Notes under the pieces: generated by a model
Databases searched by the model: none
What the model was told of the DNA's origin: nothing
Seen by the model: only the letters and a program-made list of their open reading frames with translations
NCBI GenBank assembly: GCA_902727925.1
Contig: CACVAW010000010.1
Coordinates: 72,726 to 136,725, forward strand
Reading direction: 5' to 3'
Length of the DNA: 64,000 bases
Source: an uncultured Campylobacterales bacterium
GTDB taxonomy: Bacteria > Campylobacterota > Campylobacteria > Campylobacterales > CACVAW01
Part shown: positions 771-14,780 of the stretch, one piece after another
Numbering within the stretch: the stretch's first letter is position 1
Layout: each line of letters starts with the position of its first letter
Translations under genes and position numbers: made by a program

Positions 771-3707
771 ATGAGGAATAATACTATTAACTTCACACAG
801 TATCACTCAAAATATTATGCTGAAATATTGACACTTCAAAGTAGTGCGAACTCTATTGACAGACTGTCTCAGTCAATCTTTAATGCTCAGATTGACTTGA
901 ACCCTCATCAAGTTGAAGCAGCTCTATTCGCTTTTAAGTCACCTTTGTCGAGTGGTGTTATATTAGCTGATGAAGTTGGACTGGGGAAGACAATAGAAGC
1001 TGGTCTTGTTCTTACTCAGTATTGGAGTGAGAGAAAAAGAAAGATTATTATCATAGCACCATCGAGTCTTAGAAAACAGTGGTCCATGGAGCTTAGAGAG
1101 AAATTCTTTTTAGATAGCTTCATCTTAGATGGTAAAAGCTACAAAGAAGAAATAGTAAAAGGCAATAAAAATCCTTTTGAACAAAAAGATAAGATAGTTA
1201 TCACTTCATACCAATTTGCTTCAAGACATAATGAAGCGATGTTTTTAGCAGATTTTCAACTAAGTGTTATTGATGAAGCTCACAAACTTAGGAACTACCA
1301 CAAAGGCGAAAAAGCAAAAATGTCATTTGCTATTGCCAATGCTTTGAGAGATACAAAAAAAGTATTACTCACAGCTACACCTCTTCAAAACTCTTTACTT
1401 GAAATATTTGGTCTTGTAAGTGTTATAGATGATTTTGTATTTGGAGATAAGAAGTCGTTTCAAAAACAATTCTCTTCAACTGCTTTAACCACAAGCGATA
1501 TGAACGACCTTAAAGATAGACTAAAACCAATAGTAAAAAGAACACTTAGAAAAGATGTCATTGAGTATATCAACTACACTAAGAGAATACCAATAGTAGA
1601 AGAATTTACACCCTCATATGAAGAAGTTGCTCTCTATGACTTAATCTCAGACTTTATACTTAATGAAGATTTATTCTCTATACCTCGTGCGCAAAGAAGT
1701 CTTATCACTTTAGTTGTTAGAAAACTACTTGCTTCATCTACTACTGCCATTATGGGAACACTTTCAACACTTATAAACCGACTTAGAAAAATGGTCGTTG
1801 AAAAGAAAATAACTCAAGAAGACAAGGTGAATGGCGAAGCCAGAGAAGGTAGCCTGGGCTATTTAAACTTTATAATAGATGATGAAGATGAACTGATAGA
1901 AGATTATCTTGAAGAAGAAAATGATACTCAACCTAAAATATCATTTCAAGAAGTTAGACTACTTGAAGAAGATGTTGAAGCTATTGAAAGAGAGATAGAA
2001 GAACTTGAAACATTTATAGAGTTAGCAAAAACCATAGAGATAGACACTAAGGCTAAATCACTTATGAGTGCTTTAACAAAAGGTTTTGAAGCTCAAAATA
2101 CTCTTGGAGTTAAAGACCAAAAAGCAATCATCTTTACGGAGAGCAGAAGAACTCAACAGTTTTTATTTGACTATCTTAGTGCTAATGGATTTTCAGAAAA
2201 GATAGTATTATTCAACGGAACAAATACAGACCCTAAGTCAAAAGAGATTTATAAAGCTTGGTTAGAAAAATATAAAGATAGTGATAGAGCAACTGGTGCC
2301 AAAAGTGCTGATATGAAACAAGCCATAGTAGATTACTTTAGAGAAACAGCTTCTATTATGATAGCGACTGAAGCAGGGAGTGAGGGTATAAACTTACAGT
2401 TTTGTAATATGCTAATAAACTATGACCTACCTTGGAACCCACAACGAATAGAACAAAGAATAGGTAGAGTTCATAGATATGGACAAAAGTTTGATGTAGT
2501 AGTTATCAACTTCTTAAATAAAAAGAATGCCGCAGATAGACGAGTATATGAGTTACTATCAACAAAGTTCAATCTATTTGAGGGTGTATTTGGTGCTTCT
2601 GATGAAGTGCTTGGAAGTATTGAAAGTGGAGTTGATTTTCAAGATAGAATATTAAAAATATATGAAACTTGTAGAGATGATAAAGCCATAGAAGAAGCCT
2701 TTAATATTCTTCAAGATGAGATGAGAGAGCAAATAGAAGAAACAACACTAAAAACAAGACAATCACTCTTAGATAACTTTGATGAAGATGTTCATCTAAG
2801 ATTAAAAGATACAGAGTTAAGAAGCAATGAAACAGTAGATAGATTTTCAACTATTTTCTGGGATATAACAAAAGCAGAACTAAATGATGCAGCTACATTT
2901 TATGATGAAAAACAAGAGTTTGAATATAAAGGTAATCACTACCAACTTATATCAGCTTCTAAAATAAATCCAAATCAAAATGCTCACACTTATAGACTAA
3001 ATAGTTCTCTTGGCGAAGAAGTAATTGATAGAGCAAAACAAAGAGAACTGAGACTTACTAAACTTATCTTTGACCTTACTCATAACAAATACAAAATATC
3101 TGTTCTTGATGACTACAATGGTAAAAGAGGTTTTCTTAGAGCTACTAAAGTATCTATACAGTCTTATGATACTGAAGAGTATGTAATCATTACAGCACTC
3201 ACAAGTGATTACAAACTGCTAAATGAAGAAGTAGCTACAAAGCTATTATCTCTTGAAGCCAAAGAAGATAATGGAAGAAATACAAAAGTTAATATTGACA
3301 CCAATGATACTGAAAAGTTAGAGTATGAATACATCAAACAAAAAGATATAATTCTAATAGAAAATGAAGCTACAAATCAAACTCATTTCATTAGCCAAAG
3401 TACCAAGCTATATAAGTGGGCTGAGGATAAATTAGCAAGTATTGAGAAAGAGCTAAAAGATACTAGGGGTAAAATCAAAGAGCTAAATCGCCAAAGTATA
3501 GTTACTCAAAGTATTACTCAACATTCAGATATACAGCTACAAATAAAAGCTCAAGAGAAGAAAAGAAGAAAAATACAAAGAGAAATTTTTGATATTGAAG
3601 AAGAGATTGAAGAACAAAGAGATGAATTGATAGAAGAACTCAAACTTGCTAAAGAACAAACGATTACAACAAATGAATTATTTACAATAGAGTGGGAGAT
3701 TATATAA
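771..3707 (+). CDS. SNF2/RapA-family helicase-like ATPase (DISARM DrmD-like), 978 aa
   Basis: Motif I ADEVGLGKT (about nt 978-992), motif II DEAH (1272-1283) and motif III LLTATPLQNSL. C-lobe motifs ATEAGSEGINLQ and YDLPWNPQRIEQRIGRVHRYGQ. Coiled-coil E/K-rich C-terminus. The stop TAA abuts the ATG of the next gene. Confidence 0.9.
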   Translation: MRNNTINFTQYHSKYYAEILTLQSSANSIDRLSQSIFNAQIDLNPHQVEAALFAFKSPLSSGVILADEVGLGKTIEAGLVLTQYWSERKRKIIIIAPSSLRKQWSMELREKFFLDSFILDGKSYKEEIVKGNKNPFEQKDKIVITSYQFASRHNEAMFLADFQLSVIDEAHKLRNYHKGEKAKMSFAIANALRDTKKVLLTATPLQNSLLEIFGLVSVIDDFVFGDKKSFQKQFSSTALTTSDMNDLKDRLKPIVKRTLRKDVIEYINYTKRIPIVEEFTPSYEEVALYDLISDFILNEDLFSIPRAQRSLITLVVRKLLASSTTAIMGTLSTLINRLRKMVVEKKITQEDKVNGEAREGSLGYLNFIIDDEDELIEDYLEEENDTQPKISFQEVRLLEEDVEAIEREIEELETFIELAKTIEIDTKAKSLMSALTKGFEAQNTLGVKDQKAIIFTESRRTQQFLFDYLSANGFSEKIVLFNGTNTDPKSKEIYKAWLEKYKDSDRATGAKSADMKQAIVDYFRETASIMIATEAGSEGINLQFCNMLINYDLPWNPQRIEQRIGRVHRYGQKFDVVVINFLNKKNAADRRVYELLSTKFNLFEGVFGASDEVLGSIESGVDFQDRILKIYETCRDDKAIEEAFNILQDEMREQIEETTLKTRQSLLDNFDEDVHLRLKDTELRSNETVDRFSTIFWDITKAELNDAATFYDEKQEFEYKGNHYQLISASKINPNQNAHTYRLNSSLGEEVIDRAKQRELRLTKLIFDLTHNKYKISVLDDYNGKRGFLRATKVSIQSYDTEEYVIITALTSDYKLLNEEVATKLLSLEAKEDNGRNTKVNIDTNDTEKLEYEYIKQKDIILIENEATNQTHFISQSTKLYKWAEDKLASIEKELKDTRGKIKELNRQSIVTQSITQHSDIQLQIKAQEKKRRKIQREIFDIEEEIEEQRDELIEELKLAKEQTITTNELFTIEWEII
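1821..1860 (+). repeat. GC-rich 40-nt in-frame repeat, copy 1 (encodes DKVNGEAREGSLGY)
   Basis: 33 of 40 nt match 4221-4260, including a 23-nt perfect core aaggtgaatggcgaagccagaga (1824-1846). 23 of 40 nt are G/C, set in AT-rich coding sequence. Confidence 0.95.
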
Positions 3708-6686
3708 ATGGCACAAACAGAAAATCAAAAGAAATTATTAAAAATACTAAACGAGATATTCCAACTTGACCAAAGTGATTTAGACTTTGGTATCTACCGT
3801 ATTATGAATACTAAGAGCAAAGAGATAAATGAGTTCTTAGATAAAGACCTTTTATCAAGTGTATCAAAGGCTTTTAGTTCAAACGATAACAGTGCTATTC
3901 AAAAAGAATTAGATGAGCTTATTAAAACTTTAACAAATGCTGGTATGAATGCCGATGACAGTCCTAAAGTTCAAGAGTTAAAAGATAGTTTATCTTCAAG
4001 TTCAACTTCTTCAAATCTTGAAAATGAAGTCTTTTCTCACTTAGCGAACTTCTTTAAGAGATACTATAAAGATGGGGATTTTGTAAGCCTTAGAAGATAC
4101 AAAAAAGATACTTATGCCATACCTTACGAGGGTGAAGAAGTAAAACTCCACTGGGCGAATAGCGACCAATACTATATAAAAAGTGGAGAGTATTTTAGAG
4201 ATTATACTTTTACTGTAAATGATAAGGTGAATGGCGAAGCCAGAGAGAATGCCCTGGGGTGCAAAACCATACACTTGAAACTTAGCGATGCCGAAACAGA
4301 GAGTAATAACAATAAAGCCACAAGTGATAAAGAGAGAAGATTTGTAGTCTTAGAAGATAATCCTTGTGAAGTGATAGATGATGAGTTATACATCAACTTT
4401 GAGTATAAAGCCATAGGTAAAGAGAACCAAGACAAGTTAAATGAAAAAGCTATTGCTAAAGCACTTGAAAGTATTGAAGATTTAGATTTTATCAGTGCTT
4501 TGAATACTTTAGCAGCAACAGAAAAAAATAAGAAACGAACTATTTTTGAAAAGCACTTGAAGAGCTATACAAGTAGAAATAGTTTTGACTACTTTATCCA
4601 TAAAGATTTAGGTGGATTCTTAGGTAGAGAGTTGGACTTCTATATCAAAAATGAAATGTTGTTTTTAGATGATATTATGGATAGTCCTATTAAATATGAT
4701 GAAGTGATGGGTAAGATTAAAATCTTTAAGAATGTTTCTCAAAAAATAATAGCATTTCTTACACAACTTGAAGAGCTACAAAAGAAGTTATGGGAAAAGA
4801 AAAAGTTTATCATAGAAACAAACTACTGTATCACTCTTGATAAAATAGAAGAGAAACATTATAGTCATATATTTGAGAACAAAGAACAGTTAGAAGAGTG
4901 GAAAATACTTTTTGATGTAGATGTTCAAAGTGTTGATGACTTGAAAAAAGAAAAATATTTACTTTTAGATACTAAGTTTTTTGATACAAAATTCAAATAC
5001 AAGCTACTTAGTCAGTTTGATAACCTTGATGAAGATATAGATGGAGTGCTTATCAACAGTGAAAATTTTGGAGCATTAAACTTACTTCAAGATAGATATA
5101 AAGAACAAGTCAAAACTGTATATATTGACCCACCTTACAATACTGGAAGTGATGGCTTTTTATATGCTGATACATATCAACATAGTTCTTGGATGAGTTT
5201 TATGTATGATAGATTGGCTTTGGGTAGAGAGTTAATGAGTGATGATGGGGTTATTTTTAGTAGTATTGATGATAAAGAACAGCATAATTTAAAAGTTATT
5301 AATGACTTGGTTTTTGGTATCAATAATTTTAATACTAATATTGGATGGCAAAAAAGATATACAAGGAGTAATAATACAATAGATTTTACAACCGTATTAG
5401 AATTTATATTAGTTTTTTCTAAAACAGATGATTTTATAGTGAATTTATTACCGAGAACTAAAGAAGCAGATGATAGATATACAAATCCTGATAAGGATAA
5501 AAGAGGTTCATGGAAAGGTGCTTCTTTTTTAAATCCTGCAACACCAAAAGAAAGACCTAATTTATGTTATCCAATTATTAATCCAAATACTAATATTGAA
5601 ACTAATCCAACAACTAATGCATGGAGACGCTCAAAAGAAGAATTTGCAAAATTATTAATAGAGAATAAATTATATTGGGGTATTGATGGAAAACAAGCAA
5701 TACCATCAATAAAAATGTTTTTGTCAGAAGCAAGAGGCTTGACACCAACTAATTTTTGGGAACATGGATATGCAGGAAATACCGATGAAGGAACTTTAGA
5801 TTTATTTAAACTATTTAATAATAAATTGTTTAATAATCCTAAGCCAATAAAACTTATTAAGCGAGTTTTTGAACATGGTTCAAATAAAAGTTCAACAGTC
5901 TTAGACTATTTCGCAGGTTCAGGAACAACAGGGAATGCCGTTATTAACTTAAACCGTGAAGATAATGGAACAAGAAAATATATCTTAGTTGAAATGGGAG
6001 AATATTTTGATAGTGTTACAAAGCCAAGAATACAAAAAGTAATTTACACAGACAGTTGGAAAGATGGCAAACCTCAAACTAAGAATGGTATATCTCAAAT
6101 CTTCAAATACTTCAAACTTGAAAGCTATGAAGACACTCTAAATAACCTTGAATTCAAAAGAACAAAAGAGCAAGAAGAAACGTTAGATATGTATGATAAA
6201 GCTAAAGATGATTATATACTCAACTACTCTTTGCGATTTGAGAGCCAAGCTTCACTGCTAAATATAGATACTTTCAAAACTCCATTTGATTATAAGCTCA
6301 AAATTGCTACTTCAAGTGTTGGCGAAACAAAAGATACTCCTGTTGATTTAGTAGAAACATTTAACTATCTTTTAGGTCTTGTTGTTAAGCGAATAGAACT
6401 ACTCTACCCCAAGGGTACTTCTTCGCAAGCTCAGGGCGAAAGCTACCTTGTAATAGAAGGGCAAAACCTTAAAAAAGAGAAAATCCTTATCATTTGGAGA
6501 GATGGTCAAAGTAGTGAAGAACTAAATGAGTTCTTCAAAAAAATGGATTGGTCTGTAAAGACAAGCGAGTTTGATACTATCTATGTAAATGGCGATAACA
6601 ACTTAGATAATCTTAGAAAAGATGAAGACCACTATAAAGTTAAGTTGATAGAGCAAGAGTTTAAAAAATTGATGTTTGGAGAATAA
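3708..6686 (+). CDS. Site-specific DNA methyltransferase, N6/N4 beta-class (type III Mod-like order) with a ~470-aa N-terminal extension, 992 aa
   Basis: Motif IV VYIDPPYNTG (DPPY at 5127-5138) precedes motif I DYFAGSGTTG (about 5910-5930), which is the beta-class order. The N-terminal ~470 aa have no motif I recognise. Confidence 0.9.
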   Translation: MAQTENQKKLLKILNEIFQLDQSDLDFGIYRIMNTKSKEINEFLDKDLLSSVSKAFSSNDNSAIQKELDELIKTLTNAGMNADDSPKVQELKDSLSSSSTSSNLENEVFSHLANFFKRYYKDGDFVSLRRYKKDTYAIPYEGEEVKLHWANSDQYYIKSGEYFRDYTFTVNDKVNGEARENALGCKTIHLKLSDAETESNNNKATSDKERRFVVLEDNPCEVIDDELYINFEYKAIGKENQDKLNEKAIAKALESIEDLDFISALNTLAATEKNKKRTIFEKHLKSYTSRNSFDYFIHKDLGGFLGRELDFYIKNEMLFLDDIMDSPIKYDEVMGKIKIFKNVSQKIIAFLTQLEELQKKLWEKKKFIIETNYCITLDKIEEKHYSHIFENKEQLEEWKILFDVDVQSVDDLKKEKYLLLDTKFFDTKFKYKLLSQFDNLDEDIDGVLINSENFGALNLLQDRYKEQVKTVYIDPPYNTGSDGFLYADTYQHSSWMSFMYDRLALGRELMSDDGVIFSSIDDKEQHNLKVINDLVFGINNFNTNIGWQKRYTRSNNTIDFTTVLEFILVFSKTDDFIVNLLPRTKEADDRYTNPDKDKRGSWKGASFLNPATPKERPNLCYPIINPNTNIETNPTTNAWRRSKEEFAKLLIENKLYWGIDGKQAIPSIKMFLSEARGLTPTNFWEHGYAGNTDEGTLDLFKLFNNKLFNNPKPIKLIKRVFEHGSNKSSTVLDYFAGSGTTGNAVINLNREDNGTRKYILVEMGEYFDSVTKPRIQKVIYTDSWKDGKPQTKNGISQIFKYFKLESYEDTLNNLEFKRTKEQEETLDMYDKAKDDYILNYSLRFESQASLLNIDTFKTPFDYKLKIATSSVGETKDTPVDLVETFNYLLGLVVKRIELLYPKGTSSQAQGESYLVIEGQNLKKEKILIIWRDGQSSEELNEFFKKMDWSVKTSEFDTIYVNGDNNLDNLRKDEDHYKVKLIEQEFKKLMFGE
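4221..4260 (+). repeat. GC-rich 40-nt in-frame repeat, copy 2 (encodes DKVNGEARENALGC)
   Basis: Same 23-nt perfect core at 4224-4246. It sits exactly 2400 bp downstream of copy 1, in the same codon phase. Confidence 0.95.
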
Positions 6687-6687
6687 A

Positions 6688-9273
6688 ATGAATGATAAAT
6701 TTATAAATGGCTCACAATGGGTCAGGTTTGATTGCCATTTACATACAGATAGTGATAATGAGTTTAAATATAATGAAGATAAAAATTATTATATTAGCTC
6801 TTATGTAAATAAATTAAAAGAAAAAAATATTTCTGTTGGAGTTATAACAAATCATAATAAATTTAATTTAGAAGAATTTAAAGCTATTAAAAAAACTGCA
6901 AACAAAAAAGATATATTTGTTATGCCAGGTGTGGAACTATCAGTAAATGATGGAGCAAATGGGATTCATACTCTTATAGTCTTTGATGAAAAAGAATGGT
7001 TAGAAGATGGCAATAATTATATTCAGCAGTTTATTGATGAATCTTTTGTAACTCAAAATCCAAATAATTATCAAAATGAAAATGGAAGAAGTAATGATAA
7101 TCTAATAACTACAATAAAAAAATTAAATGATTATCATAGAGGCTATTTTATTATATTAGCTCATGTTGAAGATAAAAGTGGATTTTTCAATGCATTAGAA
7201 GGTGGAAGAGTTACGGAATTTGGTAAAAACAAGCTATTTAGAGATAGTGTTATAGGTTTTCAAAAAGTTAGAACACGAGATAATATAATAAAGTGGAATA
7301 AATGGCTAGATAATAATTTACCTGCTTTTGTTGAAGGTTCAGATCCTAAAAAAATAGAAGAGATTGGTAAAGGCAAAAAATCATATATCAAGATTGGCGA
7401 TTATAATTTTGAAGCTGTAAAGTTTGCATTACAAGATAATAAGTATAGAGTAAGTAAAGAAACTCAAAATAGAGAAAACTCATTTATTAAATCTATTGCA
7501 TTTGATGGTGGTAAACTAAATGGACAGATAATAGAACTCTCTTCATCTATGAATAATCTTGTAGGGGTTAGGGGTAGTGGAAAATCATCTATAATTGAAG
7601 CTGTTAGATATGGATTAGATTTACCATTTGGAAGTAATAGTGTAGATATTGATTATAAAAATAATTTAGTAAAAGAACTGCTTGGAAGTGCAGGAAAAAT
7701 ATCTATTAAAGCTATAGATAAGGATGATAGAGAGTATCTTATAGAGCGAGTTTATGGACATAGCTTAGAAATAAAAAAAGATGGCGAACTTAAAAATGTC
7801 GGTATTTTGTCAATTTTAAATAAACCTCTATACTTTGGACAAAAAGATTTATCAAGTTATAAAAGTGGTTTTGAGGGAGACCTAATCAATAAATTGATTG
7901 GAGATAAAACAAAAGATATTCAAGTTAGTATTGATGTTAAAAAGCAAGAAGTGAAGTCATTACTTGAAAATATAAAAAAGTATGATAATTTAGATGATAA
8001 AAAAGAAGAGATAACGAGAAAAATCGCAGAGCTCAACTTGAAAATTGATGAGTTTAAAAAACATAAAATAGAAGAGAAATTACAAAAACAGATAGAGTTT
8101 AATAAAGATAAGACTTCTTTGCAAAGTATTAAAAAAAGGCTAAAAGAGTTTAGAAGTGATGTTGATGAATTTTTGTCACAATATGAAAAAGAGAATTTCT
8201 TTGAAAAAATGAAAAATTATGAGTCAAAAGAAAATCAAGATACATTTGATGAAATTTACAAAATTGTTGATGAGACTGAAAAAAGTTTTATAGATATTAC
8301 AGCTGGACTTCATAAATTAATTAATAGTTTTAAAAATATTAATGGTATTGAAAATGATTTTAATACTAAAGCTAAAGAATTAGAGGTTGAGTTTCTTGAA
8401 ATCCAAAGAGAGATAAGCATTCCTAATTTAAGAGCAGATGACTTTATGACTTATACAAAATCTTTACATACACAAAAGATGATGTTGGCTGAGTTAGAAA
8501 AGTCAGGGGCAATAAAAAAAGATATGAATAGCAAACTTGTAAAGCTATTGTCAGAACTTAATGATTTGTATAGAGAAGAGTTCAAAATTATTGAGGTAGA
8601 AATAAACAAAATCAATAGCACTCAAAAGTTTATAAAATTAAAGTCTGAATTTAAAGGAGACAAATCATCTTTTGAACAGTATTTAAAAAATATTTTTGGT
8701 GGAAGTGGTTTAGGTAAGGCTGATTATGAAAAATTATGTACCTATGTAGATTGTAGTGAAGTTTACAATGATTTTGAAAATATTTCATTTGGTGGTAATA
8801 AATTATTAGTATTTAGAGAAAGATTTATGAATTCACTATCTTCGTTATTAACTTTTAAAGTTCCGAATAAAATTGAAATTTTTTATAATGGAAAAGAGTT
8901 AACTAAACATTCACTTGGTCAAAGGTCATCTGCTTTAATTATATTTATATTAACACAGCAAGATAACGACATAATAGTAATCGACCAACCAGAAGATGAT
9001 TTAGATAATCAAACTATTTACAATGAAGTTATAAAAGAGTTAGTTAAACTAAAAAATAAGACTCAGTTTATATTTGCAACACACAATGCAAACATACCAG
9101 TTTTAGGAGATTGTGAACAGATAGTTGTGTGTGATTATGATGAAAATAAAATCAATACAGAGCTTGGAAGTATAGATAACCACGACATTCAAGAGAAGAT
9201 AATAAATATTATGGAGGGCGGAGAAGAAGCCTTTGATAAAAGAAGGGAGATATATAATTTATGGAAACATTAG
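6688..9273 (+). CDS. PHP-domain phosphoesterase fused to a coiled-coil SMC/Rad50-like ABC ATPase
   Basis: N-terminal PHP-like His/Asp/Glu motifs: CHLHTD (about 6733-6750), ITNHN, PGVELS, GIHTLIVF, LAHVED. Walker A GVRGSGKSS (about 7564-7590), then a ~300-aa K/E-rich coiled-coil-like insert, then SLGQRS, Walker B IVIDQPEDDLD (about 8977-9006) and FATHNANI. I prefer ATG 6688 (GGAG 6 nt upstream, 1 nt after the methylase stop) over the track's TTG 6676. Confidence 0.8.
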   Translation: MNDKFINGSQWVRFDCHLHTDSDNEFKYNEDKNYYISSYVNKLKEKNISVGVITNHNKFNLEEFKAIKKTANKKDIFVMPGVELSVNDGANGIHTLIVFDEKEWLEDGNNYIQQFIDESFVTQNPNNYQNENGRSNDNLITTIKKLNDYHRGYFIILAHVEDKSGFFNALEGGRVTEFGKNKLFRDSVIGFQKVRTRDNIIKWNKWLDNNLPAFVEGSDPKKIEEIGKGKKSYIKIGDYNFEAVKFALQDNKYRVSKETQNRENSFIKSIAFDGGKLNGQIIELSSSMNNLVGVRGSGKSSIIEAVRYGLDLPFGSNSVDIDYKNNLVKELLGSAGKISIKAIDKDDREYLIERVYGHSLEIKKDGELKNVGILSILNKPLYFGQKDLSSYKSGFEGDLINKLIGDKTKDIQVSIDVKKQEVKSLLENIKKYDNLDDKKEEITRKIAELNLKIDEFKKHKIEEKLQKQIEFNKDKTSLQSIKKRLKEFRSDVDEFLSQYEKENFFEKMKNYESKENQDTFDEIYKIVDETEKSFIDITAGLHKLINSFKNINGIENDFNTKAKELEVEFLEIQREISIPNLRADDFMTYTKSLHTQKMMLAELEKSGAIKKDMNSKLVKLLSELNDLYREEFKIIEVEINKINSTQKFIKLKSEFKGDKSSFEQYLKNIFGGSGLGKADYEKLCTYVDCSEVYNDFENISFGGNKLLVFRERFMNSLSSLLTFKVPNKIEIFYNGKELTKHSLGQRSSALIIFILTQQDNDIIVIDQPEDDLDNQTIYNEVIKELVKLKNKTQFIFATHNANIPVLGDCEQIVVCDYDENKINTELGSIDNHDIQEKIINIMEGGEEAFDKRREIYNLWKH

Positions 9274-10418
9274 AATTAATTGAAAGAATTTCAAATGGGG
9301 AAGATAGTTATACTCAGTTTAAAGAAAACATAACTAATAATGATAAATTAGCGGAGGAATTAGTTGCTTTTTCAAATTCAAAGGGTGGTGTATTGATTAT
9401 TGGAGTTACTGATAATAACGATATAGCTGGTCTTAGTGATGATGATATTAGACGATTAAATCAACTGGTAGGAAATGTAATTAATTCTAATATAACACCT
9501 CCTATATATCCTATTACAGAAATCAAAATAATTGAACAAAAAAAATTGTTAATAGTTACTGTAGAAGATGGAAGTAATAAACCATACTCTACTAATAAAG
9601 GTATATATCTAACTAAAGCAGGTAGTGATAAAAGAAAAGTTTCACCAGAAGAATTAAAAAGATTATTTGCAGAGTCAAAAAGATTATATGCTGATGAAGA
9701 AATAGTTGTAGGTAGCGATATTAGTGATTTAAATAGTGAACAATTTTATAATTTTTTAGAAAAAGATGATAGTAAAATTTATGAAGAAGTAAAACAAGAC
9801 ACTCTAAGTCTTTCAAGTGTTTTAGAAAATCGTGAGTTATTAAGAAATGACCAATTAACATTAGCAGGAAATTTAATATTTGGTATGAACCCACAAAAGT
9901 ATAATACTTCATTTTATGTAGATTGTGTATATTTTGATGGAGATGAAATATCAGTAGATAAATTTATCTCTAAAAAGACTCTCAAAGGAAGTTTTGAAAA
10001 ATTATTTAATGATAGTTTAGCTTTTGTTGTTAGTAATTTGACTAAAAAACAAGTTGATGATGAGTTTAATACTAAGGGAGAGCTTGAAGTAGATGAACGA
10101 GTATTAACAGAGTTAATCGTAAATGCTTTAGTTCATAGGGATTACTATATTAACTCTTCTATTAAAATTTTTATGTTTCATAATCGTATAGAAATAGTTA
10201 GTCCAGGGAAGTTAACAAATTCTTTAACGGTTGATAAAATTAAGAGTGGTATATCAATTCATAGAAACCCAATCTTAAACTCAATATGTAAAACGGTGTT
10301 GCCATATAGTGGTTATGGGAGTGGTATTAAACGGGCAATTGGTATAAATCCAAGTATTGAATTTATAAACGATATTGATAAAGAAGAGTTTAAGTGTATT
10401 ATTCCAAGAGAAGTGTAG
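9261..10418 (+). CDS. Schlafen/AlbA_2-type putative DNA-binding protein with a C-terminal HATPase_c_4-like region (often annotated RecG-like regulator)
   Basis: N-terminal GEDSYTQFKE...VAFSNSKGGVLIIGV matches the AlbA_2 pattern (E-x-x-x-[EQ]-F-K ... N-x-x-G-G-x-[IL]-x-[IL]-G-[IV]). C-terminal LIVNALVHRDYYINSSIKIFMFHNRIEIVSPGKL is the typical HRDY...PG block. Its ATG overlaps the upstream gene by 13 nt. Confidence 0.7.
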   Translation: METLELIERISNGEDSYTQFKENITNNDKLAEELVAFSNSKGGVLIIGVTDNNDIAGLSDDDIRRLNQLVGNVINSNITPPIYPITEIKIIEQKKLLIVTVEDGSNKPYSTNKGIYLTKAGSDKRKVSPEELKRLFAESKRLYADEEIVVGSDISDLNSEQFYNFLEKDDSKIYEEVKQDTLSLSSVLENRELLRNDQLTLAGNLIFGMNPQKYNTSFYVDCVYFDGDEISVDKFISKKTLKGSFEKLFNDSLAFVVSNLTKKQVDDEFNTKGELEVDERVLTELIVNALVHRDYYINSSIKIFMFHNRIEIVSPGKLTNSLTVDKIKSGISIHRNPILNSICKTVLPYSGYGSGIKRAIGINPSIEFINDIDKEEFKCIIPREV

Positions 10419-10421
10419 ATA

Positions 10422-13400
10422 ATGAAATTTAATGAAAAATTAGTATTAAATTCATACCTATTATCACTTTTAGGTGTAGAAAATTTTGAAGAGTTAGCTA
10501 AAGACTTAAAAGCTTCACGACTTGAAGAGCTTGATGAAAATGATAACTCACTTTTCTATCACGAGTTAAAAGATAAACTTGTAAGCACTCACAAAATCAT
10601 TAGCGATGATAAGCTTCAAGAGTATGATGAAAATATTGTAAGACACACCAAAACTATGGGTCGTGGTATAAAGTGGAAATATTTTCAATACCTATCACTT
10701 CTGTTTATTGAGATTTATTTAGATAAATATTTTGATGATAAAGAACAACTTCTTGAAGACCTAAATATATATCTAAGAGAGTTTAATACAGACATAGATA
10801 AAAAAGAGAAGCTTACAGAATACAATGAAACAGAGTTAAATAAATTAGCTCTATACAATGCTACTGGGTCTGGTAAAACTTTATTACTTCAAATGAACAT
10901 ATTACAGTTTAATCATTATGCTAAAGGTAAAATCAAAATTAATAAAACAGTTTTGATTACTCCTAATGAGGGATTGTCAAATCAACATTTAGAAGAGTTC
11001 AAAGCTTCAAACATAGAAGCAGAAATATTTGATAAAAACAGACAGAACACACTTGTGAATAGTGCTATTGAAATTATTGAAACAACAAAGCTTGGAGATG
11101 AAACTAAAGATAAAACGATTGCTGTTGATAGTTTTGAAGATAATAATTTAGTTTTTATAGATGAAGGACATAATGGAGTAAAAGGCGAAGTAAGAAAAGA
11201 GAACAGAGATAAGCTAAGTGAAAATGGTTTTGCTTTTGAATACTCAGCAACTTTTGCTCAAGCAATAAATAGTGCTGCTGGAACAAAGAAAAAAGAGCTT
11301 GAAAATGAATATACAAAAGCTATTATATTTGATTATAGCTATAAGTATTTTTATAATGATGGCTATGGTAAAGACTATTCAATACTTAACCTAAGTGAAG
11401 ATAGTGATGACATAAAACAGACTTACTTAACAGCTGCACTTCTTAGCTTTTATCAACAGATGAAAATCTATGAGAGTTCAAAGACAACACTAAAGCCTTA
11501 TCTTATTGAAAAGCCTTTGATGGTATTTGTTGGTTCAAGTGTAAATGCCGTTAGAACAGAGAGCAAAAAGCAAGTGTCTGATGTAGTTGATGTATTGTTA
11601 TTTATAGATGAGTTTATCAAGAGTAAGAGTGAAAGTATTGCTAATATAGATAAAATAATGAGCTTTGATAGTGGTCTTCGTAATTCTAAAGGAGTAGATA
11701 TATTTGAGAACAAGTTTAGTTTTTTAGAAAATACAAAACTAAATGCTGCTCAACTGTTTGATGATATGTTAAATCTTATCTTTAATGCAACAAACGGAAC
11801 TCTTCATATAGAGAACCTAAAAGGTGTCGATGGAGAGATAGCCCTTCGTATTGGAGAGAATGAATACTTTGGTGTTATCAATGTAGGCGATAGTCAAAGC
11901 CTTGTAAAGTTATGTGAAGCAAATGGTATGAGTATAGCAAGTAGAGATTTTTCAAGCTCACTGTTTAAGACTATAAATGATACTACTTCAAATCTAAATA
12001 TACTTGTAGGTTCAAAGAAGTTTAGTGAAGGTTGGAGTTCTTGGAGAGTATCCACTATGGGGCTTATGAATATAGGTAAAAAAGAGGGTTCTCAGATTAT
12101 TCAACTATTTGGTCGTGGTGTTAGATTAAAGGGTTATGACTTTTGCTTGAAAAGAAGTAGAGCTATTAGAGGTAAAGAGCTGATGCGAAAATATCAAGCA
12201 GTTGAAACATTAAATATATTTGGACTAAAAGCTGATTATATGAAAGCTTTTAAGGACTACCTAAAAGATGAGGGTGTTCCTACTGATGAGAGAGTTGAAT
12301 TTGTTTTACCTTTGATTTATGATAAAAGCTACAAAACTAAAAAGTTAAAAGTGTTAGACCTTCAAGTTGGTAAAAATTACAAAAAAGAAGTTAAACTTGA
12401 TTTAGAATATAGTGATATTAGAGGTATTAGTAAGAAAGTAGTTCTTAGCTTGTATAAACAAGTTGATATATTAGAGAGTGAAAGCAGAACTGGAAATAAG
12501 TATGATTTAAACAGCGAGATACTCGATAAAGTTCATCTTAGCTTTATGAGTATTGATAATATATTTTTCGCACTACAACAATTCAAAAATGAAAAAAGTT
12601 GGAGTAATCTGAATATCTCAAAAGATGATGTAAATGATTTAATCAATAGAAATGATTGGTATAAACTATTTATTCCAAGCGATGATATGAAAGTAAGTAG
12701 CTTCAAAAATATTTCTAACTTTGAACAGATAATGATTACACTACTTAAAAAGTATATGAAGTCATTTTATGAGTATAAAAAGAGTGAGTGGGAGAGCCAA
12801 TTTTTAGAATATAGAGAATTGGACGAGACAAAGGATACTTCAAACTTAATAGACAACTATACCATTACAGTAGAAGACAAAGAAATAGAGCTTATAGAGA
12901 GGTTAGAAGCTCTTAGAACTATGCTTGAGAGTGGTGTTATAGATGATGCTGAACTTCACAGACTATCTAAGAAAGATTTTAAGGCTTTTAGATTTGATAA
13001 ACACCTATACAATCCACTTGTATTCAAAGACAGAGGTGAAACAGCTCTACAAATAAAACCAATAGAGCTAAACGATGGCGAAAAAGATTTTGTGGAAGAT
13101 TTAGATAGCTACTTGAAACGAAATGGCTCTACTTATGAAGATACAGAGATATATCTACTAAGAAACCAAAGTAAAACAGGACTTGGATTTTTCACAGAGG
13201 GTAATTTCTACCCCGACTTCATTATGTGGATAAAAAAAGATGAAAAACAATATATTAGTTTTATAGACCCTAAAGGGATAAGAAACTTAAACCCAAGTAA
13301 TGACCCAAAAATTAATTTATCAAAAAAAATCAAAGAGATTGAAAATAATCTTGGAGATACGAATATAATATTAAACTCTTTTATAGTTTCTAATACATCA

Positions 13401-13526
13401 TATAATGATATTTTAGACTTACATAATAATATTTCATTAGAAGAATTAGAAGATAAAAATGTGTTATTCCAGCAAGATGATAAGAATGGTTATATTGGTA
13501 AAATGTTTAGTAAGGTATTGAGTTAA
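10422..13526 (+). CDS. Type III Res-like DExH helicase with a C-terminal PD-(D/E)xK nuclease motif, 1034 aa
   Basis: Walker A NATGSGKT (about 10860-10880), motif II FIDEGH (11160-11171), motif III YSATF, FSEGWS, and motif VI QLFGRGVR. C-terminus reads YPDF...(17 aa)...FIDPKG (13211-13274), a PD...DxK pattern. Starts 3 nt after the upstream stop. Confidence 0.8.
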   Translation: MKFNEKLVLNSYLLSLLGVENFEELAKDLKASRLEELDENDNSLFYHELKDKLVSTHKIISDDKLQEYDENIVRHTKTMGRGIKWKYFQYLSLLFIEIYLDKYFDDKEQLLEDLNIYLREFNTDIDKKEKLTEYNETELNKLALYNATGSGKTLLLQMNILQFNHYAKGKIKINKTVLITPNEGLSNQHLEEFKASNIEAEIFDKNRQNTLVNSAIEIIETTKLGDETKDKTIAVDSFEDNNLVFIDEGHNGVKGEVRKENRDKLSENGFAFEYSATFAQAINSAAGTKKKELENEYTKAIIFDYSYKYFYNDGYGKDYSILNLSEDSDDIKQTYLTAALLSFYQQMKIYESSKTTLKPYLIEKPLMVFVGSSVNAVRTESKKQVSDVVDVLLFIDEFIKSKSESIANIDKIMSFDSGLRNSKGVDIFENKFSFLENTKLNAAQLFDDMLNLIFNATNGTLHIENLKGVDGEIALRIGENEYFGVINVGDSQSLVKLCEANGMSIASRDFSSSLFKTINDTTSNLNILVGSKKFSEGWSSWRVSTMGLMNIGKKEGSQIIQLFGRGVRLKGYDFCLKRSRAIRGKELMRKYQAVETLNIFGLKADYMKAFKDYLKDEGVPTDERVEFVLPLIYDKSYKTKKLKVLDLQVGKNYKKEVKLDLEYSDIRGISKKVVLSLYKQVDILESESRTGNKYDLNSEILDKVHLSFMSIDNIFFALQQFKNEKSWSNLNISKDDVNDLINRNDWYKLFIPSDDMKVSSFKNISNFEQIMITLLKKYMKSFYEYKKSEWESQFLEYRELDETKDTSNLIDNYTITVEDKEIELIERLEALRTMLESGVIDDAELHRLSKKDFKAFRFDKHLYNPLVFKDRGETALQIKPIELNDGEKDFVEDLDSYLKRNGSTYEDTEIYLLRNQSKTGLGFFTEGNFYPDFIMWIKKDEKQYISFIDPKGIRNLNPSNDPKINLSKKIKEIENNLGDTNIILNSFIVSNTSYNDILDLHNNISLEELEDKNVLFQQDDKNGYIGKMFSKVLS

Positions 13527-13578
13527 TACAATTTTTTGGTTTTGTTCTGATTATAACTGTAATATGTTACTTTTTAAT

Positions 13579-13600
13579 GAAGTGTCAATTAATACACTTC
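13579..13600 (+). terminator. Weak stem-loop downstream of the five-gene operon
   Basis: GAAGTGT-caattaat-ACACTTC (7-bp stem) lies 53 nt after the stop, with no strong U-tract. Confidence 0.3.
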
Positions 13601-13730
13601 TTAAACAAAAAATTAACAAATTAGCCGATACAAAGACTTAACACACCTAAACAAGCATAAAAGATATAGATATACAAATATTCATTTTTTTGCTAAAATA
13701 GTAATGTATACTATTTTATAAAGGATTAAA

Positions 13731-14201
13731 ATGAAGAAATTAAACTTTTCGGTACTCTTGGCTGGTGTTGCCTTATTTATGGCTTTTGGGATGACTTCTC
13801 TTAGTGCTTGTGCTACTAAAACAGAAACTAAATGTGGATCTGAGAAAATCACTAAATGTGATTCTGGGAAATGTGGTAAAGCAGAGAGAAAAACTAAAAA
13901 ATGTGACAAGTCTAAAAAATGTGATTACAAAAAGAAATGTGATAAGTCTAAAAAGTGTGACTACAAAAAGAAATGTGACAAGTCTAAAAAGTGTGACTAC
14001 AAAAAGAAATGTGATAAGTCTAAAAAGTGTGACTACAAAAAGAAATGTGACAAATCTAAAAAGTGTGACTACAAAAAGAAGTGTGACAAGTCTAAAAAAT
14101 GTGACTACAAAAAGAAATGTGACAAATCTAAAAAGTGTGACTACAAAAAGAAATGTGACAAATCTAAAAAAAGCGATAAATCTAGATTAAATATGTTTTA
14201 A
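13731..14201 (+). CDS. Cys/Lys-rich repeat lipoprotein (KCDKSKKCDYKK x7), HvfA-like low-complexity precursor-type protein
   Basis: Signal peptide MKKLNFSVLLAGVALFMAFGMTSLSAC carries the lipobox L-S-A-C. It is followed by KCGSEKITKCDSGKCG, seven exact 12-aa repeats, and the tail SRLNMF. RBS-like aaagga lies upstream. Confidence 0.75.
   Translation: MKKLNFSVLLAGVALFMAFGMTSLSACATKTETKCGSEKITKCDSGKCGKAERKTKKCDKSKKCDYKKKCDKSKKCDYKKKCDKSKKCDYKKKCDKSKKCDYKKKCDKSKKCDYKKKCDKSKKCDYKKKCDKSKKCDYKKKCDKSKKSDKSRLNMF
13899..14150 (+). repeat. 36-bp in-frame tandem repeat, 7 full copies (a partial 8th extends to ~14171)
   Basis: Copies start at 13899, 13935, 13971, 14007, 14043, 14079 and 14115. They differ only at gac/gat and aaa/aag wobble positions. 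Confidence 0.95.
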
Positions 14202-14388
14202 TCTTAGTAGAGGTGGGTTCTATACTCATCTCTATACCAATATATTCTATATACTCCTTTCTTAAACACAATATTAACAAAACTTCAGAATAAACATTTA
14301 ACCATCCTAATAATACAAGGTCTAGGTATGTATACTTAATTACTATTTTTTAGATAGAATATTGATGTATAAAATTAAAAGGACAGAA

Positions 14389-14748
14389 ATGAAAAAATTA
14401 AATTTTTCGTTATTATTCGTTGGAGTTGCTTTATTTATAGGTCTTGGTATAACCACTCTTAGTGCTTGTGGCAGTAAAAGTGGTGATGCTAAATGTGGTT
14501 CTGATAAAGTAACTAAATGTGATAGTGGAAAATGTGGAGCTTCTAAAAAAGCTACAAAATGTGGAAGTAAATGTGGTGATGCAAAATGTGCTTCAGACAA
14601 ATCTTCAAAATGTGGTGATGCTAAATGTGGCGCTAAAAAAGCTACTAAGTGTGGAACTGCTAAATGTGGTACAGAAAGCAAAGCAGCTACAAAATGTGGT
14701 GCTGGTAAATGTGGAAGTGACAAAGAATCTAAATTAGATATGTTTTAA
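14389..14748 (+). CDS. Cys-rich KCG-repeat lipoprotein, paralogue of 13731-14201 (HvfA-like)
   Basis: MKKLNFSLLFVGVALFIGLGITTLSAC (lipobox) is followed by 12 K-C-[GDA] motifs and the tail SKLDMF. I prefer ATG 14389 (aaaagga upstream) over the track start 14362, because it aligns with the paralogue's N-terminus. Confidence 0.75.
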   Translation: MKKLNFSLLFVGVALFIGLGITTLSACGSKSGDAKCGSDKVTKCDSGKCGASKKATKCGSKCGDAKCASDKSSKCGDAKCGAKKATKCGTAKCGTESKAATKCGAGKCGSDKESKLDMF

Positions 14749-14754
14749 TTTTTT

Positions 14755-14780
14755 TAAGGAGTGACATTGTTCACTCCTTA
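14755..14780. terminator. Stem-loop shared by convergent genes (10-bp stem)
   Basis: TAAGGAGTGA-cattgt-TCACTCCTTA is preceded by a T-run on the + strand. It sits 7 nt after the KCG gene stop and overlaps the end of the extended minus-strand frame. Confidence 0.5.

What the first reader, a model, noticed from the sequence alone, without database searches (positions are those of the whole stretch)
6688..9273. Single polypeptide fusing a PHP phosphoesterase to a Rad50/SMC-like coiled-coil ABC ATPase
Seen: the N-terminal ~230 aa carry PHP-style metal-ligand motifs (CHLHTD, NHN, GVELS, GIHT, LAHVED). Then come Walker A GSGKSS, a ~300-aa K/E-rich heptad-like insert, an SLGQRS signature-like element, Walker B VIDQPEDDLD and a THN H-loop. 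Established: Mre11-Rad50 and SbcCD pair a phosphoesterase nuclease with a coiled-coil ABC ATPase as two subunits, and PHP domains act as metal-dependent phosphoesterases or exonucleases in DNA polymerases X and III. Inference: this may be a one-chain analogue of an SbcCD-like DNA-end or structure sensor-nuclease that uses PHP in place of the calcineurin-like fold, recruited as an effector or sensor in the operon.
Basis: partly seen in the sequence, partly recalled or inferred. Interest (0 to 1): 0.65.

Follow-up and report, generated by a model that had tools for sequence, protein, structure and literature searches.

The report
TrlF nuclease-ATPase nested in restriction operon
The gene encodes a real one-chain fusion of a PHP metal-dependent nuclease domain to an SMC/Rad50-like ATPase. 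It belongs to an already catalogued family (TrlF, a relative of the anti-phage protein Ppl) that travels with a Schlafen-like partner gene and here sits inside a restriction-modification operon.

Summary

Structure prediction (pLDDT 77.9) plus Foldseek confirm both halves:
- an N-terminal PHP fold (RNase AM, PolC and Pol III alpha PHP domains);
- an SMC/Rad50/MukB/JetC/RecF-type ABC head split by a ~250-aa antiparallel coiled coil.

The fusion is not new. The protein scores 523.8 bits (cutoff 350) on NCBIfam NF045780, 'TrlF family AAA-like ATPase'. It is a distant relative of Ppl, which a 2026 review describes as an NTP-inhibited 3'-5' ssDNA exonuclease that senses 3'-OH ends. The exact sequence is already in NCBI.

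1. TrlF is paired with the next gene, TrlG (AlbA_2/Schlafen + HATPase_c_4), in 73 of 84 loci, and the two co-evolve (r = 0.91).
2. This two-gene cassette is mobile and recurrently sits inside type I, type III, MmeI and SNF2-Mod-Res restriction operons (at least 30 of 84 loci).
3. Gln replaces the catalytic Glu after Walker B in 81 of 82 family representatives. This points to an NTP sensor rather than a motor.

Verdict: a new member of a known kind, of modest interest.

The parts
6688..9273 (+). trlF: 861-aa TrlF-family PHP nuclease / SMC-like ABC ATPase fusion (the finding)
   Evidence: NCBIfam NF045780 at 523.8 bits against a cutoff of 350, matched over the full length. 100% identical to an NCBI record. 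The family has 485 representatives of 50%-identity clusters at E <= 1e-30.
6688..7473 (+). PHP phosphoesterase domain (aa 1-262). Ligand motifs are D15/H17/H19, D23, H56, E83, H94, H159 and E216/D219. K221 replaces the canonical last His.
   Evidence: Foldseek matches to RNase AM PHP 7ug9 (TMt 0.62, E 1.9e-4), 3o0f (E 5.8e-5), PolC 3f2c and Pol III alpha, all at probability 1.00. Pfam PHP is sub-threshold in 20 of 43 members. Motifs align in register with E. coli RNase AM. pLDDT is 83-96 over residues 10-160.
7474..7869 (+). ABC head, N-terminal lobe (aa 263-394): Walker A GVRGSGKSS (293-301) and Q-loop Q385
   Evidence: A profile of 43 homologues matches the Smc head 5h68 at E 2.4e-5, and Smc3 and Rad50 heads at the Walker A region. 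Pfam SMC_N hits 42 of 43 members.
7870..8622 (+). Antiparallel coiled-coil arm (aa 395-645). The apex is near 500-517, with no Cys, no zinc hook and no hinge domain.
   Evidence: The AF2 model has helices 395-430, 435-457, 462-500, 517-575 and 583-645. K+E is 29% with no Cys. Foldseek aligns head plus coiled coil to MukB 7nyw (7.3e-9), JetC 9qxu and Smc 5xei.
8623..9270 (+). ABC head, C-terminal lobe (aa 646-861): signature S742-L-G-Q-R, Walker B I765-D766 followed by Q767 (not Glu), D-loop DDLD, H-loop H799, and the conserved C-terminal MEGGxxAF helix
   Evidence: The second stretch of the Smc and Smc3 head alignments covers 737-821. DQPE occurs in 81 of 82 full-length family representatives and DEPE in none. 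This segment has low pLDDT, 39-67.
9261..10418 (+). trlG: 385-aa partner with AlbA_2/Schlafen domain (14-127) plus HATPase_c_4 (299-360). It overlaps the end of trlF by 13 nt.
   Evidence: Pfam hits at 5.6e-24 and 2.5e-12. The architecture matches Photorhabdus TrlG. A TrlG homologue is directly downstream in 73 of 84 loci. It co-evolves with TrlF (r = 0.91, Mantel 0 of 999).
771..3707 (+). SNF2-family helicase (DrmD-like), first gene of the host restriction operon
   Evidence: Pfam SNF2-rel_dom 1.2e-35 plus Helicase_C. NCBIfam DrmD_b 686.7 bits is below the 950 cutoff.
3708..6686 (+). Type III-like N6/N4 DNA methyltransferase (Mod). It ends 1 nt before trlF.
   Evidence: Pfam N6_N4_Mtase 8.1e-37. 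PADLOC MTase_III 748.7 bits.
10422..13526 (+). Type III-like Res helicase-nuclease. It starts 3 nt after trlG.
   Evidence: Pfam ResIII. PADLOC REase_III 675.3 bits. In E. coli/Klebsiella and Priestia plasmids, homologues directly abut the Mod gene with no trlFG between them.

Best explanation
The ORF encodes a TrlF-family protein: a PHP metal-dependent phosphodiesterase fused to an SMC/Rad50-like ABC head whose two lobes are separated by a ~250-aa antiparallel coiled coil.

**Proposed mechanism (by homology with Ppl).** TrlF most likely works as a nucleotide-gated, DNA-end-sensing exonuclease. The heads bind NTP and, because Gln replaces the catalytic Glu, hold it rather than burn it. This keeps the PHP nuclease off. 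When a phage depletes the NTP pool and free DNA 3' ends appear, the nuclease is released.

**The unit.** TrlF works as a unit with the translationally coupled downstream protein TrlG (Schlafen/AlbA_2 + HATPase_c_4). TrlG is probably a growth-arresting effector or nucleic-acid-binding adaptor. The trlFG pair is a self-contained mobile defence cassette. Here it is nested between the mod and res genes of an SNF2-Mod-Res type III-like restriction system and is co-transcribed with it.

**Shown:** family membership, both folds, motif conservation, the TrlG linkage and the nesting.

**Inferred:** nuclease activity, NTP gating, the role of TrlG and the anti-phage function.
For: **Family and relatives**
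- NCBIfam TrlF equivalog 523.8 bits against a cutoff of 350, full length.
- Ppl models hit at 9.3e-46 (NCBIfam) and 3e-37 (PADLOC).
- BLASTP against E. coli Ppl WP_015059139 gives 24% identity over PHP plus Walker A (E 2e-18) and 34% over the signature-to-C-terminus region (E 1e-16).

**Folds**
- Foldseek finds SMC-type heads with coiled coils (MukB 7.3e-9, JetC, Smc, Rad50, RecF, RecN) and PHP domains (3o0f, 7ug9, PolC, Pol III alpha).
- A profile search of PDB sequences aligns both head lobes to Smc and Smc3.
- PHP ligands and ABC motifs are invariant.
- DQPE occurs in 81 of 82 representatives. Q767 aligns with the Gln of the Smc/Smc3 crystal constructs; those are E-to-Q mutants by my recollection.

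**Ppl biology**
- Ppl is described as an NTP-inhibited 3'-5' ssDNA exonuclease that needs 3'-OH ends (PMC12904381). The primary citation is Xu et al., Mol Cell 2026.

**TrlG linkage**
- TrlG is adjacent in 73 of 84 loci, and the two proteins co-evolve.
- In Photorhabdus, trlG mutations relieve a growth arrest (PMC7554251).

**Cassette autonomy and nesting**
- The closest relative (72% identity) stands alone in a defence island. The same five-gene layout occurs in Aliarcobacter.
- The SNF2-Mod-Res core exists without trlFG.
- Restriction neighbours of several types surround the cassette elsewhere.
Against: - No experiment exists on any TrlF protein. All biochemical inference is borrowed from Ppl, which is only about 24-34% identical and scores far below the Ppl cutoff (156 against 1000).
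- The last canonical PHP ligand, the His of the DxH motif, is an invariant Lys (K221) in TrlF. The metal site may therefore differ from that of Ppl.
- In Photorhabdus, none of 29 temperature-tolerant mutants hit the large trlF gene. This argues that TrlF is not the toxic effector, at least for that phenotype.
- The C-terminal head lobe is modelled with low confidence (pLDDT 39-67).
- I could not read the primary Ppl paper.
Confidence: 0.6

Rival explanations
1. **Sensor-effector split.** TrlF is mainly the sensor and switch: SMC-like heads and coiled coil detect DNA ends or structures, or NTP level. The Schlafen-like TrlG is the toxic effector, for example an RNase/tRNase or a DNA-binding growth inhibitor. 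The PHP domain would then play a regulatory or processing role rather than destroy phage DNA.
For: - All temperature-tolerant Photorhabdus mutants mapped to trlG and none to the larger trlF. Wild-type trlG in trans restored the growth arrest (PMC7554251).
- TrlF and TrlG are tightly coupled and co-evolve.
- The natural Gln at the catalytic-Glu position fits a sensor.
- From general knowledge, eukaryotic Schlafens include tRNA nucleases.
Against: - The PHP ligands are invariant across the family, which implies selection for catalysis.
- About 10 of 84 loci have TrlF without TrlG, including L070 inside the same SNF2-Mod-Res frame. Ppl also works alone.
- Catalytic residues of TrlG were not assessed here.
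Confidence: 0.25
2. **Restriction-coupled module.** trlFG is functionally tied to the restriction enzyme it sits in. Either it acts as a guardian that fires when the R-M enzyme is inhibited by a phage, as PrrC is silenced by EcoprrI. Or it acts as a follow-up exonuclease that loads on the DNA ends made by restriction cleavage.
For: - At least 30 of 84 loci (24 of 69 with 4 kb or more of flank) have R-M genes within 6 kb. These are nearly all on the same strand and often have overlapping stop and start codons: hsdR-trlF, trlG-hsdS, mod-trlF, trlG-res.
- The five-gene layout recurs in Campylobacterota, and without TrlG in Planctomycetota; a Leptotrichiaceae contig (L001) shows TrlF-TrlG-Res but is cut upstream.
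- There is precedent for R-M-embedded ABC-ATPase nucleases: PrrC and RloC (PMC2610378; PMC12707154).
- Ppl needs 3'-OH ends made by another nuclease.
Against: - Most loci are not next to R-M genes, and the closest relative is stand-alone.
- Near-identical TrlFs (95-96%) sit in different R-M types or in none. No specific protein-protein partnership with one R-M family is therefore likely.
- No background rate of R-M proximity for defence genes was computed.
Confidence: 0.25
3. **Housekeeping DNA-repair enzyme.** The protein is a one-chain SbcCD/Mre11-Rad50 analogue that processes hairpins or double-strand breaks for the cell. This is the core of the first reader's analogy.
For: - Architectural analogy: a nuclease plus a coiled-coil ABC ATPase.
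- Foldseek hits to Rad50, RecN and RecF.
Against: - Distribution is patchy and mobile: conjugative plasmids, defence islands and phage-like records.
- Linkage is to R-M, toxin-antitoxin and Mrr genes, not to repair genes.
- There is no zinc hook.
- Gln replaces the catalytic Glu.
- The nearest characterised relative is an anti-phage protein.
Confidence: 0.05

Closest known systems
TrlF of the Photorhabdus laumondii temperature-restricting locus (trlR-trlF-trlG); NCBIfam NF045780
   Same: The window protein scores above the curated equivalog cutoff over its full length. It has the same PHP + AAA-like ATPase architecture. It is followed by the same partner, TrlG (AlbA_2 at 14-127 and HATPase_c_4 at 299-360, against 14-128 and 298-365 in Photorhabdus).
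   Different: There is no small TrlR regulator upstream. The pair is instead driven from inside an SNF2-Mod-Res operon. The host phylum is Campylobacterota, not Gammaproteobacteria. The only phenotype known for the family (growth arrest above 34 °C) maps to trlG, not trlF.
Ppl (single-gene anti-phage system; Gao et al. 2020; Xu et al., Mol Cell 2026)
   Same: Same order of domains: PHP, then Walker A lobe, helical insert, signature / DQPEDDLD / H-loop lobe, and the C-terminal MEGGxxAF helix. The similarity is significant at both ends. Both carry the same natural Gln after Walker B.
   Different: Identity is only 24-34%, and the Ppl model scores 156 bits against a cutoff of 1000. Ppl acts alone, whereas TrlF is paired with TrlG. 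The last PHP motif is DxH in Ppl (GSDAH) but D-P-K in TrlF.
RloC / PrrC anticodon nucleases
   Same: All combine an ABC-type ATPase with a nuclease domain. RloC also has a Rad50-like coiled-coil insert. PrrC is embedded in a restriction operon (a type Ic hsd locus) and senses nucleotides as well as the state of the R-M enzyme.
   Different: The nuclease in RloC and PrrC is a C-terminal HEPN-type tRNase, not an N-terminal PHP domain. RloC has a zinc hook and TrlF has none. No sequence homology beyond the ABC core was detected.
SbcCD / Mre11-Rad50
   Same: Both pair a metal-dependent phosphoesterase with a coiled-coil ABC ATPase. The head fold matches Rad50 structures.
   Different: SbcCD and Mre11-Rad50 are two-subunit complexes with a calcineurin-like nuclease, a CxxC zinc hook, much longer coiled coils and a catalytic Glu. 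TrlF is one chain with a PHP nuclease, no hook, about 120-residue arms and Gln at the catalytic position.
SMC-like defence complexes (Wadjet JetC, Lamassu LmuB)
   Same: They share the defence context and an ATPase that controls a nuclease.
   Different: In those systems the nuclease is a separate subunit (JetD, LmuA) of another fold, and kleisin-like or other partners are required.

Membership tests
TrlF family AAA-like ATPase (NCBIfam NF045780) | Whole-protein score above the curated equivalog cutoff, matched end to end | tested here: met
   523.8 bits against a cutoff of 350. Protein residues 7-857 match model positions 1-944 of 944.
TrlF family AAA-like ATPase (NCBIfam NF045780) | Operon partner TrlG (AlbA_2 + HATPase_c_4) immediately downstream, as in the founding Photorhabdus locus | tested here: met
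   ORF 9261-10418 overlaps the end of trlF by 13 nt. The Pfam domains sit at the same positions as in Photorhabdus TrlG. The partner is present in 73 of 84 loci.
TrlF family AAA-like ATPase (NCBIfam NF045780) | Small TrlR regulator gene in the same operon as trlF/trlG (Photorhabdus layout; the paper is inconsistent on gene order) | tested here: not met
   The 992-aa methyltransferase ends 1 nt before trlF. This is a feature of the founding locus, not of the protein family.
Ppl anti-phage protein (NCBIfam NF042955 / PADLOC PDLC02208) | Score above the curated cutoff | tested here: not met
   156.2 bits against a cutoff of 1000. PADLOC Ppl scores 126 bits, mainly at the C-terminus. Identity to E. 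coli Ppl is 24-34%.
Ppl anti-phage protein (NCBIfam NF042955 / PADLOC PDLC02208) | NTP-inhibited 3'-5' ssDNA exonuclease activity triggered by 3'-OH ends | not testable with these tools
   Known only from the literature on E. coli Ppl. It needs biochemistry on TrlF.
PHP domain (Pfam PF02811) | Pfam gathering score | tested here: not met
   20.5 bits against 26.4. The hit is sub-threshold in 20 of 43 homologues, with a best E-value of 1.4e-4.
PHP domain (Pfam PF02811) | PHP fold in three dimensions (a distorted (beta/alpha)7 barrel, from general knowledge; fold class not checked directly) | tested here: met
   Foldseek probability 1.00 to RNase AM PHP 7ug9 (TMt 0.62), 3o0f, 3e0f, PolC 3f2b/3f2c and Pol III alpha 4iqj/2hpi/5fkw. 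The model pLDDT is 83-96 in this region.
PHP domain (Pfam PF02811) | Nine metal ligands (HxH, H/D, H, E, H, H, DxH) | tested here: inconclusive
   H17, H19, D23, H56, E83, H94, H159 and D219 are conserved. The final His of DxH is an invariant Lys, K221. Metal content is unknown.
SMC/Rad50-type ABC ATPase | Walker A, Q-loop, signature, Walker B, D-loop and H-loop split between two lobes by an antiparallel coiled coil | tested here: met
   The motifs lie at 293-301, Q385, 742-746, 762-766, 770-773 and H799. Both lobes align to Smc and Smc3 heads. Head plus coiled coil matches MukB, JetC, Smc and Rad50.
SMC/Rad50-type ABC ATPase | Catalytic Glu immediately after the Walker B Asp | tested here: not met
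   The sequence is D766-Q767-P-E. DQPE occurs in 81 of 82 full-length representatives and DEPE in none. Q767 aligns with the Gln in the Smc/Smc3 crystal constructs, which I recall to be E-to-Q mutants.
SMC/Rad50-type ABC ATPase | Hinge domain (SMC) or CxxC zinc hook (Rad50/SbcC) at the coiled-coil apex | tested here: not met
   There is no Cys between residues 17 and 683. The apex at 500-517 is a short loop in the model.
SbcCD / Mre11-Rad50 | Calcineurin-like (Mre11/SbcD) phosphoesterase as the nuclease | tested here: not met
   No metallophosphatase hit appears in Pfam or NCBIfam. The nuclease domain is PHP.
DISARM (considered for the surrounding operon) | DrmD above cutoff, together with DrmA, DrmB and DrmC | tested here: not met
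   DrmD_b scores 686.7 bits against a cutoff of 950. The other genes hit PADLOC type III MTase and REase models, not DrmA, DrmB or DrmC.
PrrC/RloC-type restriction-linked nuclease | Gene embedded in a restriction-modification operon | tested here: met
   In the window the order is mod, trlF, trlG, res, with gaps of 1 nt, -13 nt and 3 nt. Comparable embedding occurs in type I, type III and MmeI loci.
PrrC/RloC-type restriction-linked nuclease | HEPN-type anticodon-nuclease domain and silencing by the R-M enzyme | not tested
   No PrrC, RloC or HEPN family appeared in the Pfam, NCBIfam or PADLOC scans. Silencing needs experiments.

The most novel reading that the evidence does not exclude
trlFG may be a dedicated 'restriction-linked' cassette whose activity is wired to the R-M enzyme it is embedded in. 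One version is a guardian that unleashes the PHP nuclease and/or the Schlafen-like TrlG when a phage inhibits restriction, like PrrC. The other is a second-stage exonuclease that loads on the 3'-OH ends produced by restriction cleavage. The naturally hydrolysis-impaired (Gln) SMC-like head would act as the NTP and DNA-end sensor. Either version would define a widespread class of R-M accessory systems across many phyla, and would give a first function to the TrlF-TrlG pair.
Probability: 0.25. Interest if true: 0.6.

Novelty: new member of a known kind. Interest (0 to 1): 0.3.

Why it matters
The fusion itself adds nothing new. It is a catalogued family, and a relative (Ppl) already has a published mechanism.

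The value lies in the context. TrlF nearly always comes with the Schlafen-like TrlG as a co-evolving pair. That pair repeatedly nests, translationally coupled, inside restriction operons of several types. The family's SMC-like head carries a natural Gln at the catalytic-Glu position.

No paper in the searched library assigns a defence function to TrlFG. The only study treats it as a temperature-restriction locus. These observations therefore give a concrete, testable hypothesis for a very common uncharacterised gene pair, which had over 4,000 detectable homologues in the protein search. They also offer a possible explanation of the Photorhabdus phenotype as autoimmunity of a defence system.

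Tried and rejected
- **PDB sequence search** with the single protein gave only marginal Rad50 Walker A hits (E about 0.06) and no Ppl or TrlF structure. The 43-sequence profile was needed.
- **First AlphaFold model**, from 15 close homologues, was poor (pLDDT 63.5). I re-ran it with 135 sequences after a profile-based homologue search.
- **hhalign** of the family profile against E. coli RNase AM as a single sequence was weak (E 0.048, probability 1%). It is useful only for showing that the motifs align in register.
- **The primary Ppl paper** (Mol Cell 2026) is not in the library. Ppl biochemistry is therefore cited second-hand from a review and a reference list.
- **Literature searches** for 'TrlF' mostly returned the spectroscopy acronym TRLFS.
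- **The promoter and terminator scan** found no more sites than shuffled controls, so it says nothing about transcription units.
- **Integration signatures.** No tRNA gene or flanking direct repeats mark an integration site for the island.
- **DISARM** was considered for the operon and rejected. DrmD is sub-threshold and DrmA, DrmB and DrmC are absent.
- **One-off insertion.** I considered whether trlFG was inserted once into this operon. I rejected this as the whole story, because the same layout recurs in distant phyla and other R-M types host the cassette.


Full report
**1.

The ORF at 6688-9273 (+) encodes 861 residues. The ATG at 6688 has a GGAG 5 nt upstream and lies 1 nt after the stop of the preceding gene. 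The same 861-aa sequence is already in NCBI as 'PHP N-terminal domain protein [uncultured Campylobacterales bacterium]' (P0001).

The residues that matter are invariant in alignments of 43 homologues at 41-88% identity and of 135 homologues. The region 395-645 is 29% Lys+Glu, has one Pro and no Cys, and is predicted as long paired helices.

**2. Both domain calls are right**

Sequence profiles alone are weak for PHP. Pfam PHP scores 20.5 bits against a cutoff of 26.4, and it hits 20 of 43 homologues at sub-threshold level. They are stronger for the ATPase: SMC_N hits 42 of 43 members. A family profile matches Smc and Smc3 heads with both the Walker A lobe and the signature/Walker B lobe aligned (5h68, E 2.4e-5).

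A first AlphaFold model from 15 close homologues was poor (pLDDT 63.5). I used a profile search to collect 120 more distant homologues. The second model reached pLDDT 77.9 and pTM 0.59, with 83-96 over the PHP core but only 39-67 for the C-terminal head lobe.

Foldseek against the PDB then gave 59 matches at E <= 1e-3, of two kinds:
- SMC-type heads with coiled coils: MukB 7nyw 7.3e-9, JetC 9qxu 3.3e-8, Smc 5xei 5.5e-8, YydD, Rad50, RecF, RecN, cohesin and condensin.
- PHP domains: 3o0f 5.8e-5, PolC 3f2c 8.7e-5, RNase AM 7ug9 (TMt 0.62), Pol III alpha.

The motifs DxHxHT, T(D/N)H(D/N), PGVE(I/L)S and (E/G)IH align in register with E. coli RNase AM.

**3. The fusion is a known family**

NCBIfam NF045780, 'TrlF family AAA-like ATPase', matches end to end at 523.8 bits against a cutoff of 350. 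Weaker hits go to the sister Spaf_1101 family and to the anti-phage protein Ppl (9.3e-46; PADLOC Ppl 3e-37).

The family is large. It has 6,789 representatives of 50%-identity clusters at E <= 1e-3 and 485 at E <= 1e-30. It has full-length members at 40-69% identity in many phyla and 1,149 plasmid records with a match, annotated as TrlF or ppl.

Against E. coli Ppl (WP_015059139) the window protein is 24% identical over PHP plus Walker A (E 2e-18) and 34% over the signature-to-C-terminus region (E 1e-16).

A 2026 review describes E. coli Ppl as a single-gene 3'-5' ssDNA exonuclease. It is inhibited by NTPs bound to both its PHP and NTPase domains, and it is activated by NTP depletion plus 3'-OH ends made by phage homing endonucleases (PMC12904381). 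The primary reference is Xu et al., Mol Cell 2026;86:180, which I could not read.

The name TrlF comes from the Photorhabdus 'temperature restricting locus' trlR-trlF-trlG (PMC7554251).

**4.

*(a) The partner gene.* The next ORF (9261-10418) overlaps trlF by 13 nt. It has AlbA_2/Schlafen (14-127) and HATPase_c_4 (299-360) domains, at the same positions as in Photorhabdus TrlG.

Across 84 loci, a TrlG homologue lies directly downstream in 73, usually overlapping by 4-28 nt. These loci are 80 species genomes, the window and three others. Pairwise identities of TrlF and TrlG are strongly correlated (r = 0.91; Mantel 0 of 999 permutations). The two genes are therefore inherited as one unit.

*(b) A mobile cassette nested in restriction operons.* In the window the gene order is as follows.

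| Gene | Coordinates | Junction to next gene |
|---|---|---|
| SNF2 helicase | 771-3707 | 0 nt |
| Type III-like Mod | 3708-6686 | 1 nt gap |
| trlF | 6688-9273 | 13 nt overlap |
| trlG | 9261-10418 | 3 nt gap |
| Type III-like Res | 10422-13526 | (last gene) |

These assignments rest. The evidence on mobility and nesting is:
- The same five genes occur in Aliarcobacter cryaerophilus.
- The closest relative (72% identity) is a stand-alone trlFG pair in a defence island.
- The SNF2-Mod-Res core exists without trlFG on E. coli/Klebsiella IncF and Priestia plasmids, with Mod abutting Res.
- GC content of trlFG is slightly lower than that of the flanking genes, 0.26-0.27 against 0.30-0.33.

Classifying neighbours by Pfam gave these results:

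| Position | Neighbours classified | Pfam families found |
|---|---|---|
| Tightly linked, upstream | 36 | 9 N6_N4 methylases, 5 ResIII/HsdR, 2 HsdS, 1 Eco57I |
| Tightly linked, downstream | 23 | 10 ResIII, 3 HsdS, 1 MmeI, 1 PglZ |

Overall, at least 30 of 84 loci have R-M genes within 6 kb (24 of 69 with 4 kb or more of flank). These span type I, type III, MmeI, SNF2-Mod-Res and a DUF6079-containing type. Near-identical TrlFs (95-96%) sit in different R-M types or in none, so the cassette moves between contexts.

*(c) The ATPase is unusual.* The Walker B Asp is followed by Gln, not Glu (D766-Q767-P-E). DQPE is present in 81 of 82 full-length family representatives and DEPE in none. Ppl has the same feature. 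Q767 aligns with the Gln of the Smc/Smc3 crystal constructs; by my recollection these are E-to-Q mutants.

From established knowledge of ABC ATPases, an E-to-Q change permits nucleotide-dependent head engagement but blocks hydrolysis. I infer that TrlF and Ppl heads act as nucleotide sensors. There is no zinc hook or hinge.

*(d) The PHP site is a variant.* Eight canonical ligand positions are conserved. The His of the terminal DxH motif is an invariant Lys in TrlF (GSD-P-K221), against GSD-A-H in Ppl.

**5. Most likely mechanism (confidence about 0.6)**

TrlF is most likely a Ppl-like, nucleotide-gated, DNA-end-sensing PHP exonuclease that acts together with TrlG. The pair forms an autonomous defence cassette that is co-transcribed here with a type III-like restriction system.

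- **Shown:** family, folds, conserved catalytic-type residues, partner linkage and nesting.
- **Inferred:** enzymatic activity, NTP gating, defence function and the role of TrlG.

The main caveat comes from Photorhabdus. All growth-arrest suppressors hit trlG and none hit the larger trlF. This favours a model in which TrlG is the effector and TrlF the sensor (rival 1).

The recurrent operonic embedding also allows a functional coupling to restriction (rival 2, and the novel case). Two versions are possible. One is PrrC-like guarding (PMC2610378; PMC12707154). The other is use of restriction-generated 3'-OH ends.

A housekeeping SbcCD-like repair role is unlikely, given the mobile, defence-island distribution.

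**6. Verdict**

The protein is a new member of a known kind (the TrlF family, Ppl-related). Interest is modest. It rests on the uncharacterised TrlF-TrlG partnership and its habit of living inside restriction operons, not on the fusion itself.

Noticed in passing
window 13731-14201 (+) and 14362-14748 (+): Two tandem small genes encode a signal peptide followed by Cys/Lys-rich repeats. The first has an 18-nt tandem DNA repeat at 13860-14206 encoding KKCDKS/KKCDYK about seven times. The second has KCG repeats and matches the NCBIfam HvfA-family RiPP metallophore domain NF050137 (36.4 bits, cutoff 19.5). They may be metal-binding peptide precursors.
   Followed up: partly
window 150-432: The 3' end of groEL (Cpn60 C-terminus, 150-392) is followed at once by a perfect 18-nt inverted repeat (393-410 / 415-432), a likely terminator. 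The restriction/trlFG island begins about 340 nt later. No tRNA gene, integrase or flanking direct repeats were found.
   Followed up: partly
window 771-6686 and 10422-13526; L086, L087, L085: The three-gene SNF2 helicase, large N6/N4 methyltransferase and Res-like helicase system is itself a conserved unit on E. coli/Klebsiella IncF and Priestia plasmids. The SNF2 gene scores as DrmD-like but below cutoff. In Hymenobacter pHsw1 a different insert (a 1,210-aa AAA ATPase plus a hypothetical gene) sits between SNF2 and Mod. The frame therefore seems to accept guest genes at more than one junction.
   Followed up: partly
L070 (Novipirellula sp. SH528, NZ_CP197418.1), locus coordinates 5211-15787: This locus has the same SNF2-Mod-TrlF-Res frame but no TrlG. 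Several Alphaproteobacteria (L052, L068, L075, L076, L079) also have TrlF without TrlG. This suggests a Ppl-like single-gene lineage within the family.
   Followed up: no
OR846775.1 and OR848124.1 (Listeria phage LM 4-11-1 and LM 4-14-1 records, hits H16 and H17): Full-length TrlF homologues (43% identity) lie on two unannotated records of about 20 kb deposited as Listeria phages. The cassette may therefore also ride on phage-like or satellite elements.
   Followed up: no
window 9211-9270 (TrlF aa 842-861): A C-terminal motif, MEGGxEAFxxRxxxYxxW, is invariant across TrlF and also present in Ppl (MEGGEKAFRSRYE). It lies beyond the H-loop, has no assigned function and is modelled at low confidence.
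   Followed up: no
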